In this document: one piece after another, positions 37,581 to 44,900 of the stretch
Layout of the letters: the number at the start of each line of letters is the position of its first letter
How positions within the stretch are numbered: position 1 is the first letter of the stretch
Assembly: GCA_009914755.4 (NCBI GenBank)
Contig: CP086569.2
Location: 13,408,001-13,472,000, forward strand
Reading direction: 5' to 3'
Length of the DNA: 64,000 nucleotides
From: the human T2T-CHM13v2.0 reference genome, Homo sapiens
Notes under the pieces: generated by a model
What the model saw: the letters and a program-made list of their open reading frames with translations, nothing else
The model's database searches: none
Told to the model about the DNA's origin: nothing
Made by a program: the position numbers and the translations under genes

Positions 37581-37705
37581 CAGGAGTGAGCTGGGCTGGA
37601 GTCCTCACTCCTGGCATGACACCAAGTTCACCAACAACCACCCTGAACTAACGGCCTCACGGTTCCCCTCCGCCAGCTGCTGCCCTTCCTGGCCTGGCTG
37701 TCACC
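37581..37705 (+). pseudogene. SHROOM2P1: SHROOM2-like exon (125 bp), homologous to the exon just after the PDZ region
   Basis: Follows the acceptor ttcttttccag. Translates to [42 protein letters not shown]. Donor at ag|gtagac. Confidence 0.75.
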
Positions 37706-38224
37706 ACTGGAGGTAGACAACTGTTCCTGTCCGACGCCAGGTTTGTTCAGGCTTCTGCAGTCTCCCAAGTTTTCAGGCTTGTCCGACACTTCTTGACTGA
37801 AGAATGATAATGTTTTTGGTAAGACTGTGCCACTGACAGATGATCACAATTTGAGCGCTGTGAGTTTTTCATTGAACAGGCAAGCGTGTGACGCTGAGAA
37901 ACAAAATGACATGGCAAGACAGGGCATGAGTGACAAGGAGATTGCAGGACGGGGCTGCCCAGCGAGATGCCAGGTATAGGGTTCTTAGCCAGTGGGGCAG
38001 GGTTCATTGCACCCCCGTGTCCGCAGCCACCATCCTCTTTTCCAGGATTTTACGGGTGGACTGGAATGCAGGAGATATTTGTGGGGCGGCGGGTGTATCC
38101 TGTAAAAGCTCCCAGGAGGTTCTGTTAAGTTTTGGCAGCCTCTCCTTGAACCTCAGGGCATTAGCGGCAGTATCCTCACTTGTCTCCTGTTAAAAGGGTG
38201 GCAGTAACAGCAGATAGTCTCGTT

Positions 38225-38490
38225 TTGGTGTGTGTATGTGGATATCCTCCTGCTTGTGTGAGTGTGCATATCTGTGTGTGTTTGTGGTTGTGTGTATGTA
38301 TGTGGGGGGTTGGACATGTATGTTTTTACATGTTTGTGTGTATGTATTCATGTGTCTATATGTATATTTGTGTCTATGTGTGTGTGCATGTGTATCTCTG
38401 CTTGTATGTATGTGTGCACATATGTATCTGTATGTGAGTATATGAGTTTGAGCATGTTTGTGTGTGTGCAGGTATGTGTGTGAATTTAGA
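38225..38490. repeat. GT-rich low-complexity region ((TG)n / TGTGTATG variants)
   Basis: gtgtgtgtatgtggatatcc...tgtgtgtgtttgtggttgtgtgtatgtatgtgggg...; the ORFs on both strands here are artefacts. Confidence 0.85.
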
Positions 38491-38531
38491 GCTAATGTAA
38501 CCACTCAGTTTTGGCTGTTAGTAACTGGTCT

Positions 38532-38690
38532 TGGCTGGTCACAGTGGCTCTCGCCTGTAATCCCAACATTTTGTGAGGCTGAAGTGGGAAGATTGCTTAA
38601 GGCCACAGAGTTTGAGACCAGCCCGGGCAATACAGCAAGACCACATGTCTACTAAAAATTAAAAACAAAAAACAAAACAAAAAAAAACTT
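38532..38690 (+). mobile_element. Alu fragment (left arm plus A-rich linker)
   Basis: ggctggtcacagtggctctcgcctgtaatcccaacattttgtgaggctgaagtgggaagattgcttaagg... Confidence 0.8.
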
Positions 38691-38691
38691 G

Positions 38692-38995
38692 GTTGGGCAT
38701 GGTATCTCATGCTTATAATCCCAGCACTTTGGGAATCCAAGGCAGTCAGAACATTTGAGGTCAGGAATTTGAGTGCAGCCTGACCAGCATGGTGAAACAT
38801 TGTCTCTACTAAAAATACAAAATAATTAGCTGAACTTGGTGGCACACACCTGTAGTCCCATCTACTTGGGAGGCTGAGGCAGGAGAATTGCTTGAACCCA
38901 GAAGTTGGAGGTTGCAGTGAGCTGAGATGGTGCCACTGCACTCCAGCCTGGGCAGCAGAGAGAGATTCTGTCTCAAAAACAACACCAACAACTCC
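38692..38995 (+). mobile_element. Alu SINE
   Basis: ggttgggcatggtatctcatgcttataatcccagcactttgggaatccaaggcag ... gcactccagcctgggcagcagagagagattctgtctc. Confidence 0.9.
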
Positions 38996-43025: not shown

Positions 43026-43794
43026 GTAAGCCATGGAGCCAAGCGAGGGCATGACCCCCCTTTGACCATCATCTTAACACATGGACAGGACACACCCAGG
43101 ATGCAATGGCTGAGGCCAGCGCTACTTAGCTCCAGCTGTTCAGGAGTTTACCTTTCCCATACCTCCTAGTGTCCACTGTGTCAGAGTTACTTGGGGACAA
43201 AATCAACATATTCAAGGTAATTTAAAATGCCAGGTTCTCAAAAACCCACTTTTTTCATTCCCGTTCTTGCTGCCATAATCTCTGGCTTTAACTGTCTTTC
43301 ACCTTAAGTAGCCTGTTCCTACCTTCAGACTCAGCAAAGAACTTGGAGAGAAACTGTCGAAAATGATAACGAACCACCTTGACCTGGAAAAATGTGTGGT
43401 TTATTTAAAGGCTTAAAACAACATACAATAGTCACCAAACACTGATGATATTTAATGTCTATGGTATTTGGGTTTTTATACTATTCTGTTTTTTATCTGC
43501 AAATATTTTTAAGGATTGCTCTGGAACAAAATGTAGTCTTTTTTGAAAACACCTAAAACACATTAAGTTATTGCACATTTTTAAGGTGAGAGTTTTGATG
43601 GTCAGAGTTTACATCAAGCTTTCTAGAAAACTGTGTATTTCACAGCCCTGCTTCAAAGTTGACAGTCCCTTTCTCTCTTGCCCCTGCCCCTTTGAAAGCT
43701 TTTTCTCCCTATTACATCTGCACCTGTATATTTCAAAGAAAAAAAGTTCTGCAGTGATAGATACAGTTCCTTTTTAAAAGAATAAGAGGTGAGT

Positions 43795-44060
43795 GGGCTG
43801 GTGCATTTGCAGTCCTACCAGTTTGGATGGCCAGGAAAGGATGATCACTTGAGAACAGGAGTTCCAAACCAGTCTGGGCAACAAAGCAAGACCTTGTCTC
43901 TACAAAAAAGGAAAAAATACTTCGCCAGGTGTCACAGTGGTGCCCAGGAGGTATAGGTTTCAATGAACTGTGTTCTCAACACTATACTCCAGCCTGGGCA
44001 AAGGAGCAGTAAGTAGTACCCTCTCTCAACAAAAAAAAAAAAAAAAAAAAAAAAGAACCA
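43795..44060 (+). mobile_element. Alu SINE (divergent) with long poly-A
   Basis: ggatggccaggaaaggatgatcacttgagaacaggagttccaaaccagtctgggcaacaaagcaagaccttgtctc ... ctccagcctgggcaaaggagcag ... then (A)25. Confidence 0.8.
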
Positions 44061-44289
44061 CTAATAAATTTAATAGAAGATATTTAATATGTGCATGGAA
44101 AGAAAGCTGCTGGTTTGCTCTGTGGTGTCCCGGCTCTGAAAATCCATGCAGATGGTGTGAGTGTGTGTTTTCAGCATTGGAATACCCTGGCTTGTGGGCT
44201 ATTCAGCATTACCTCTGAGAATATCATGCTTGCTCTTTCAGGAGCAAAGAATCTGGGGCCCTGACATCCTAGAGCTTGAGGTTTCACCA

Positions 44290-44395
44290 CTATAATTTGT
44301 GACCAGCTATATTTTATTTTATTTTATATTTTATATTCTATTTTATTTTAAATTTTTTATTTTGTTTTATTTATTTTATTTTATTTTAATTTCTT
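44290..44395. repeat. (ATTTT)n/(TTTTA)n simple repeat
   Basis: atattttattttattttatattttatattctattttattttaaatttt... Confidence 0.85.
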
Positions 44396-44580
44396 TTGGC
44401 CAGTTGTGCCACACGGTTTTACAGGCTTCACGTAGGAGTTCTGTTTCCTGCCCAGAACAGAAGTGGTTATGGGATCTTAGTTGTTTCAATGAAATGCTTT
44501 GTAGAGCTGCACTGGCAAGGTGAACGCACAAATGACGGCTTTCATAATCACAGCCAGCTGTGGACTTAGTGTCTCATTGT

Positions 44581-44900
44581 GTTACCCTTTGCAGGATGCT
44601 TCCGTCAAACTGCGAAGGCAGGCAGAGGACCCCGGCAAGCACATAGAAGAGCTTCCCTCTGCAGTCTGGGCCAAAGAGGAATAGTCCATGCCGACGTGGA
44701 TGAAATTTGGATTCAGAGTTACTGAAGAAGTGTCTGGAGGTGGGCCTCAGTACGTATGGTGGGTGACATCTGGTTTTTGCCCAACATAAAGCAGCTGAAA
44801 CCCGGCATGATTTCCAGCATCCCTGATGCCCTGGAGGTCTGGACAGAACCTGTGCATCCTGCAGCCCTGCCCAGAGACACATCCCTAGGGCAGGAAGGCC
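44581..44900 (+). pseudogene. SHROOM2P1: SHROOM2-like downstream exon (5' part) with an in-frame TAG
   Basis: After ccctttgcag it translates to DASVKLRRQAEDPGKHIEELPSAVWAKEE*. Its SHROOM2 counterpart is [30 protein letters not shown]. The 3' extent is uncertain. Confidence 0.55.

What the first reader, a model, noticed from the sequence alone, without database searches (positions are those of the whole stretch)
37581..44900. Intron-containing, frameshifted SHROOM2 (APXL) homologue, consistent with the X-degenerate pseudogene SHROOM2P1
Three blocks with canonical AG and GT boundaries translate to SHROOM2-like peptides at roughly 75-85% identity to what I recall of human SHROOM2. The ~2.15-kb serine-rich exon needs about seven frame changes. 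The downstream exon has an in-frame TAG. Retained introns show a duplicated or gametologous origin rather than retroposition. The upstream PDZ exons were not found in this window.
Basis: partly seen in the sequence, partly recalled or inferred. Interest (0 to 1): 0.55.

Follow-up and report, generated by a model that had tools for sequence, protein, structure and literature searches.

The report
Dead Y-chromosome copy of SHROOM2
This stretch is the already catalogued, decayed Y-chromosome copy (SHROOM2P1, formerly APXLP) of the X-linked cytoskeleton gene SHROOM2, an ordinary relic of X-Y divergence and not a new or working gene.

Summary
Three blocks (37584-37712, 40871-43025, 44595-44695, + strand) are collinear homologues of SHROOM2 exons 3, 4 and 5. 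All six AG/GT boundaries and the splice phases are kept.

The exon-4 homologue was aligned to a gibbon X-chromosome SHROOM2 locus. It is 83% identical at the DNA level. It carries nine frameshifting deletions, a compensated +1/+2 insertion pair, a 156-bp in-frame deletion and five premature stops. The exon-5 homologue has one stop, a CAG-to-TAG change at 44682-44684.

Introns 3 and 4 and at least 23.6 kb of surrounding DNA (32083-55721) are also homologous to the X locus at about the same identity. This is therefore an unprocessed gametologue, not a retrocopy.

Published X/Y sexing primers for SHROOM2/SHROOM2P1 match perfectly. They give exactly the published Y product (282 bp) in the window and exactly the published X size (446 bp) in the gibbon X locus. 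The Y-STR DYS389 lies at the start of the window.

A protein tree places the copy as sister to simian X SHROOM2 in 200 of 200 bootstraps.

Verdict: the known X-degenerate pseudogene SHROOM2P1. Low interest.

The parts
37584..37712 (+). Homologue of SHROOM2 exon 3 (129 bp). Acceptor AG at 37582-83, donor GT at 37713-14. One 3-bp in-frame deletion, no stop. Encodes [42 protein letters not shown].
   Evidence: tblastn of human SHROOM2; alignment to gibbon X exon 3, 82.9% identity; boundaries.
37713..40870 (+). Homologue of SHROOM2 intron 3 (3158 bp, against 3290 bp in gibbon X). Contains Alu elements and a TG-rich tract.
   Evidence: Collinear blastn segments to L005 at 71-84% identity; global alignment 83% over 2635 aligned pairs.
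40871..43025 (+). Homologue of the large SHROOM2 exon 4 (2155 bp, against 2341 bp on X). It has nine frameshifting deletions, a +1/+2 insertion pair, a 156-bp in-frame deletion after 41793, and five premature stops (41519-21 TAG, 41853-55 TGA, 42428-30 TAG, 42500-02 TGA, 42927-29 TAG).
   Evidence: DNA alignment to gibbon X exon 4, 83.3% identity; codon walk; alignment to the X-copy contig L004, 83%.
42170..42670 (+). Relic of the ASD1 (Apx/Shroom domain 1) coding region inside the exon-4 homologue (approximate coordinates). It is broken by four frameshifting deletions, a compensated +1/+2 insertion pair and two stops.
   Evidence: The frame-corrected translation matches the whole Pfam ASD1 model (1-185/185) at 94.9 bits; human SHROOM2 scores 186.7 bits. 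The uncorrected ORF scores only 20.1 bits, below the cut-off.
41632..41913 (+). In-silico amplicon of the published SHROOM2/SHROOM2P1 sexing primers hAPXL-F/R. It is 282 bp, the published Y-specific size. It spans the 4-, 156- and 4-bp deletions, which together make the 164-bp difference from the 446-bp X product.
   Evidence: Primers and sizes from PMC9875541; perfect primer matches in the window; 446 bp in gibbon X.
43026..44594 (+). Homologue of SHROOM2 intron 4 (1569 bp, against 1733 bp in gibbon X).
   Evidence: Collinear blastn at 82-88% identity; global alignment.
44595..44695 (+). Homologue of SHROOM2 exon 5 (101 bp, the same length as on X). No indel. One premature stop, TAG at 44682-84 (CAG on X). 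The donor is weakened (GAC|gtggat against GAG|gtgggt).
32083..55721 (+). Whole block collinear with the X-linked SHROOM2 locus (3' part of intron 2 to about 10 kb into intron 5) at about 80-84% identity. It is interrupted by window-specific segments. The 5' limit is set by the end of the comparison locus, not by the end of homology.
   Evidence: Collinear blastn chain, window 32083-55721 to L005 901-23122.

Best explanation
The region is the central part (exon 3-5 homologues with their introns) of SHROOM2P1 (old name APXLP). This is the non-functional Y-chromosome gametologue of X-linked SHROOM2.

Proposed history:
- SHROOM2 lay in or next to the ancestral pseudoautosomal region.
- X-Y recombination stopped in the stem lineage of simian primates, and the Y copy then evolved without recombination.
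- The Y copy lost function and has since decayed neutrally. It accumulated small deletions that shift the frame, nonsense substitutions, one 52-codon deletion, CpG-to-TpG/CpA decay and transposon insertions in its introns.
- It keeps its exon-intron layout only because it arose as a chromosomal copy and not through an RNA intermediate.

It cannot encode a Shroom protein.

Shown here: the homology, the gene structure, the disabling lesions, the match to the Y-specific markers and the tree position. Inferred: the history of recombination arrest and neutral decay.
For: - Collinear protein homology to human SHROOM2 aa 107-964, and to nothing else in the protein.
- Exon boundaries and phases identical to the gibbon X gene.
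- Nine frameshifting deletions and six premature stops.
- Introns and flanks are homologous to the X locus over 23.6 kb, at an identity equal to or above that of the exons: exon 4 is 83.3%, and intron segments are about 77-88%. So there is no sign of extra conservation of the coding sequence.
- CpG count falls from 136 to 34. Of the 136 X CpGs, 87 are TG or CA in the window.
- Published Y/X sexing primers for SHROOM2P1/SHROOM2 match 20/20 each and give the published 282-bp Y product. The gibbon X locus gives the published 446-bp X size.
- The published DYS389 forward primer matches twice, 116 bp apart, at 113-137 and 229-253. Two binding sites are what I recall being expected for this Y-STR (DYS389I/II); the cited paper gives only the primer sequence.
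- In an NJ tree of frame-corrected protein, the window copy is sister to Saimiri plus catarrhine X SHROOM2 in 200/200 bootstraps. Tarsier and lemurs fall outside.
- Literature places SHROOM2 at or near the pseudoautosomal boundary in carnivores, pig and cattle.
Against: - No human genome assembly could be searched, so Y linkage rests on two published PCR markers rather than on a direct map position. The species (human rather than another great ape) is not proven.
- Pairwise Ka/Ks is 0.42, not about 1. This value mixes the constrained X lineage with the Y lineage, and possibly with an early period when the Y copy was still functional. It neither proves nor contradicts neutrality.
- Transcription was not tested.
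Confidence: 0.95

Rival explanations
1. An unprocessed SHROOM2 pseudogene produced by a segmental duplication to an autosome or elsewhere on the X, not the Y gametologue.
For: The structure alone (introns retained, about 17% divergence) would fit any old genomic duplicate. No genome assembly could be queried.
Against: - The primer pair published for the Y copy gives exactly the published Y-specific size.
- The Y-STR DYS389 primer sites lie 37 kb upstream in the same window.
- Y-type content is present: a large AT tract and L1 and ERV insertions. This point is weak.
Confidence: 0.03
2. A processed (retrotransposed) SHROOM2 pseudogene.
For: None beyond similarity to the coding sequence.
Against: The three coding blocks are separated by 3158 bp and 1569 bp. 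These spacers are themselves homologous to X introns 3 and 4, and the AG/GT boundaries are kept. Homology also continues into introns 2 and 5.
Confidence: 0.005
3. A functional SHROOM2 paralogue, or the X gene itself read with sequencing errors.
For: The first 163 codons of exon 4 remain open (ORF 40770-41441). Splice sites are canonical.
Against: - Nine frameshifts, six stops and a 52-codon deletion.
- Seventeen per cent nucleotide divergence from the X gene, in introns and exons alike.
- ASD1 is recognisable only after the frame is corrected artificially.
Confidence: 0.005
4. A pseudogene that is transcribed and acts as a male-specific non-coding RNA or as a regulatory element.
For: Splice-site dinucleotides are intact. 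From general knowledge, many Y pseudogenes are transcribed at a low level.
Against: - Exons are no better conserved than introns.
- No Rfam family matches anywhere in the window.
- The only paper in the library that names the locus uses it just as a sexing marker.
Confidence: 0.05

Closest known systems
SHROOM2P1 (APXLP), human Y-linked pseudogene of SHROOM2
   Same: The published primer pair for this locus matches perfectly and yields the published 282-bp Y product. The 164-bp shortfall against the X product is accounted for exactly by the 4 + 156 + 4 bp deletions seen here.
   Different: Nothing was found that differs. The window holds only the exon 3-5 part. Whether the exon 1-2 and 6-10 homologues survive elsewhere on the Y was not testable.
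SHROOM2 (APXL), X-linked functional gene (human XP_054182993.1; gibbon X locus L005)
   Same: Same exon-intron layout for exons 3-5, same splice phases and homologous introns. The ASD1-coding region is recognisable.
   Different: The window copy is about 17% diverged. It has nine frameshifts, six stops and a 156-bp deletion, and has lost three quarters of its CpGs. It cannot make the protein.
Other X-degenerate Y pseudogenes named as X/Y pairs in PMC9875541 (GPR143P, the ARSF pseudogene, OFD1P copies)
   Same: Same kind of object: an unprocessed Y relic of an Xp22 gene, usable as an X/Y size-difference sexing marker.
   Different: A different parent gene. The GPR143P primers do not match the window.

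Membership tests
Unprocessed X-degenerate (gametologous) pseudogene SHROOM2P1 | Collinear sequence homology to SHROOM2 coding exons | tested here: met
   tblastn of human SHROOM2 aa 107-964 in order; DNA alignments 83%.
Unprocessed X-degenerate (gametologous) pseudogene SHROOM2P1 | Introns retained and homologous to the parent gene's introns | tested here: met
   Collinear chain 32083-55721 to gibbon X 901-23122; intron 3 and 4 alignments and conserved AG/GT sites.
Unprocessed X-degenerate (gametologous) pseudogene SHROOM2P1 | Disabling mutations in the parental reading frame | tested here: met
   Nine frameshifting deletions; six premature stops.
Unprocessed X-degenerate (gametologous) pseudogene SHROOM2P1 | Location on the male-specific Y chromosome | tested here: met
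   Indirect evidence only. The published Y-specific 282-bp amplicon is reproduced in silico. DYS389 forward primer sites are present at 113-137 and 229-253. Direct mapping to a Y assembly is not possible with these tools.
Unprocessed X-degenerate (gametologous) pseudogene SHROOM2P1 | No functional product (no protein; transcription absent or non-coding) | not testable with these tools
   No expression data are available. The coding capacity is excluded.
Functional Shroom family protein gene | Intact ORF encoding PDZ, ASD1 and ASD2 domains | tested here: not met
   No PDZ or ASD2 coding sequence is in the window. ASD1 is found only after artificial frame correction (94.9 bits); the uncorrected ORF scores 20.1 bits, below the cut-off of 25. 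The ORF is broken.
Processed (retrotransposed) pseudogene | Intronless copy of the mRNA | tested here: not met
   Introns of 3158 and 1569 bp are retained and are homologous to the X introns.

The most novel reading that the evidence does not exclude
The decayed SHROOM2P1 locus, with its intact splice dinucleotides, is still transcribed and spliced in males. It would then yield a male-specific non-coding RNA, or a short peptide from the still-open first 163 codons of exon 4, with some regulatory effect.
Probability: 0.04. Interest if true: 0.3.

Novelty: already known. Interest (0 to 1): 0.07.

Why it matters
It matters little beyond annotation. The locus is a textbook example of Y-chromosome degeneration: deletion-biased frameshifts, CpG decay and transposon invasion. 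It already serves as an X/Y size-difference PCR marker for sexing human cells.

The one mildly useful by-product is a date. The tree places the X-Y split of SHROOM2 on the simian stem, after tarsiers and before the split of New World monkeys from catarrhines. That fits the published picture that the primate pseudoautosomal boundary moved distally past SHROOM2.

Tried and rejected
- A SHROOM2 sequence recalled from memory was used only as a lead. It served for a first tblastn and as the query that pulled real database proteins. All conclusions rest on the database protein P0128 (human XP_054182993.1) and on the gibbon X DNA L005.
- The one metagenome scan with the X-copy ORF returned only distant vertebrate relatives (L001-L003, 46-59% identity). 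These were not used.
- The look-up of encoding contigs had no record for the human protein P0128 or for the Saimiri protein P0007. No human X DNA beyond the 1161-bp contig L004 could therefore be obtained, and no X sequence upstream of intron 2's last 5 kb.
- A first exon alignment with lenient gap penalties broke the 156-bp deletion into many pieces and invented compensating 1-bp indels. It was replaced by the stricter alignment.
- Pfam on the raw ORFs gave only a sub-threshold ASD1 fragment. The domain appears clearly only after frame correction.
- The Rfam scan of the whole window found nothing.
- GPR143P primers from the same paper do not match the window.
- A sensitive tblastn for SHROOM2 aa 1-110 and 960-1615 gave only chance-level hits.

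Full report
**What is in the sequence**

The window is primate genomic DNA rich in Alu elements. Human SHROOM2 was obtained from the protein collection as P0128 (XP_054182993.1, 1615 aa). A tblastn of it against the window gives only collinear + strand hits:
- aa 107-148 at 37582-37707
- aa 160 to about 930 spread over 40899-43100 in all three frames
- aa 930-963 at 44592-44693

A sensitive search with aa 1-110 (PDZ) and aa 960-1615 (including ASD2) finds nothing better than E about 0.5.

**Reference DNA**

Two real X-copy sequences were obtained.
- L004 is a 1161-bp contig from a public sequencing run. Its ORF (P0002) contains a 160-residue stretch identical to human SHROOM2 aa 151-310.
- L005 is 71 kb of the Hylobates moloch X chromosome holding SHROOM2 exons 3-10. 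Its exons 3, 4 and 5 lie at 5123-5254, 8545-10885 and 12619-12719. Spliced together they translate without interruption to a protein about 95% identical to the human one.

**Structure**

| Exon homologue | Window coordinates | Length |
|---|---|---|
| Exon 3 | 37584-37712 | 129 bp |
| Exon 4 | 40871-43025 | 2155 bp |
| Exon 5 | 44595-44695 | 101 bp |

Each is bounded by AG and GT at exactly the positions used in the X gene, and the phases are preserved. For example, exon 3 ends ...TGG AG and exon 4 starts T, giving HHW-S-SSSHNL against the X sequence HHA-S-SSSHDL.

Introns 3 and 4 measure 3158 and 1569 bp, against 3290 and 1733 bp in gibbon X. They are themselves homologous to the X introns.

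A collinear chain of alignments runs from window 32083 to 55721, matching L005 901-23122, at roughly 80-84% identity. The 5' end of this chain is set by where L005 starts, not by loss of homology. L004 shows the same pattern: 83% identity across 367 bp of intron plus the start of exon 4. A processed pseudogene is therefore excluded.

**Lesions**

With a parsimonious alignment, the exon-4 homologue is 83.3% identical to gibbon X exon 4. The indels are as follows.

| Type | Size | After window position |
|---|---|---|
| Frameshifting deletions | 1, 1, 4, 4, 1, 4, 1, 1, 10 bp | 41359, 41534, 41704, 41877, 42281, 42334, 42417, 42621, 42843 |
| Local insertion pair (net +3) | +1, +2 bp | 42570, 42576 |
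| In-frame deletion (52 codons) | 156 bp | 41793 |
| In-frame 3-bp indels (three deletions, one insertion) | 3 bp each | 40965, 42470, 42548, 42998 |

Walking the X codons through the alignment gives six premature stops.

| Window position | Window codon | X codon |
|---|---|---|
| 41519-21 | TAG | CGG |
| 41853-55 | TGA | GGA |
| 42428-30 | TAG | TGG |
| 42500-02 | TGA | CGG |
| 42927-29 | TAG | TCA |
| 44682-84 (exon 5) | TAG | CAG |

Exon 3 has only a 3-bp in-frame deletion.

After artificial frame correction, the conceptual protein is 72% identical to human SHROOM2 over 721 columns. It matches the full Pfam ASD1 model at 94.9 bits, against 186.7 bits for the real protein. Without correction, only a 20-bit fragment below the cut-off is seen.

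**Signs of neutral decay**

- Exons are no better conserved than introns.
- CpG dinucleotides fall from 136 in the X exons to 34. Of the X CpGs, 87 are TG or CA in the window.
- Pairwise Ks is 0.34, Ka is 0.145 and Ka/Ks is 0.42. This ratio averages the constrained X lineage with the Y lineage, so it is not a clean test.

**Identity and chromosome**

No human genome assembly could be searched, so published markers were used.

PMC9875541 lists the X/Y pair SHROOM2 (APXL) / SHROOM2P1 (APXLP). Its primers are AGTAGGCTGCAGGCCTCTCT and CTGGGAGGCTCCTGGGCTCC, with expected products of X = 446 bp and Y = 282 bp.
- Both primers match the window perfectly and once each, at 41632-41651 (+) and 41894-41913 (-). 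The product is 282 bp.
- In the gibbon X locus the same primers give 446 bp, with one mismatch in the forward primer.
- The 164-bp difference is exactly the 4 + 156 + 4 bp of deletions found between the primers.

Independently, the window starts inside a compound (GATA)n(GACA)n microsatellite duplicated with a 116-bp period. The published DYS389 forward primer (PMC2886054) matches it perfectly twice, at 113-137 and 229-253 on the minus strand. From my own knowledge, this double binding is what defines DYS389I/II. The reverse primer is absent, as expected if it lies just before position 1.

Two published Y markers in one window make Y linkage very likely.

**History**

An NJ tree was built from the frame-corrected translation with X or autosomal-type SHROOM2 of 12 mammals. 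It places the window copy as sister to the clade Saimiri + Pygathrix + gibbon + human in 200 of 200 bootstraps. Tarsier, lemurs and non-primates fall outside. The caveats are that it is a protein NJ tree and that the Y copy sits on a long branch.

This dates the X-Y split of SHROOM2 to the simian stem. [quoted passage not shown]

**Why the other exons are missing**

In gibbon X, exon 6 lies 33.4 kb beyond exon 5. The window has only 19.3 kb after the exon-5 homologue. The last 8 kb of that shows no collinear match to the X locus and contains an antisense L1 segment and an antisense endogenous retrovirus. Exon 6 would therefore fall beyond the window.

The PDZ exons are absent. The distance from exon 2 to exon 3 on the X could not be measured with the data obtainable here.

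**Verdict**

This is the known X-degenerate pseudogene SHROOM2P1. Nothing about it is unexpected.

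Noticed in passing
window 7-336 (primer sites 113-137 and 229-253, minus strand): A compound (GATA)n(GACA)n microsatellite, duplicated with a 116-bp period. The published DYS389 forward primer matches perfectly twice, so the forensic Y-STR DYS389I/II sits at the very start of the window. The reverse primer site falls outside it.
   Followed up: yes
window 12104-14142: About 2 kb of degenerate (AT)n (TRF: period 2, about 1100 copies, 65% matches). GC is 7% in the 12-14 kb bin. This is an unusually long AT tract of the kind that is unstable and hard to assemble.
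   Followed up: no
window 36255-37560: A GC-rich minisatellite with units of about 49 bp (about 26 units). It runs right up to the acceptor site of the exon-3 homologue. The gibbon X intron 2 has the same array, but shorter (L005 about 4528-5100). The array therefore predates the X-Y split and differs in length between the copies.
   Followed up: partly
window about 17800-23000 (minus strand) and 57500-59000 (minus strand): Antisense L1 fragments. ORF 21427-21819 (-) hits the endonuclease/exonuclease/phosphatase family at 21.5 bits, below Pfam's 24.5-bit cut-off. There is a strong negative AT skew at 18-24 kb. The 57.5-59 kb piece lies where collinearity with the X intron 5 has stopped.
   Followed up: partly
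window about 59000-64000 (minus strand): An antisense endogenous retrovirus. An LTR-like start lies near 59000. The pol ORFs carry RNase H (60907-61653) and reverse transcriptase (62060-62578). The GC skew is strongly positive. No counterpart appears in the collinear X alignment, so it is probably a Y-specific insertion in intron 5.
   Followed up: partly
window 40770-41441: This 223-aa ORF (intron tail plus the still-open start of exon 4) is present at 100% identity as a called 'protein' (P0001) on a 2.5-kb contig of a public ENA metagenome assembly. The X-copy ORF (P0002) comes from a Logan run. Both look like human host DNA that was gene-called as if it were microbial.
   Followed up: partly
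window 41359-42843: All nine uncompensated frameshifts in the exon-4 homologue are deletions whose length is 1 modulo 3 (1, 1, 4, 4, 1, 4, 1, 1, 10 bp). The frame therefore cycles three times and the exon ends back in the original frame. This is probably chance combined with the deletion bias of neutral decay.
   Followed up: no
window 49726-50238 and 44308-44397: A (GATG)n microsatellite of about 126 units in intron 5, and a (TATTT)n tract in intron 4 just upstream of the exon-5 homologue.
   Followed up: no
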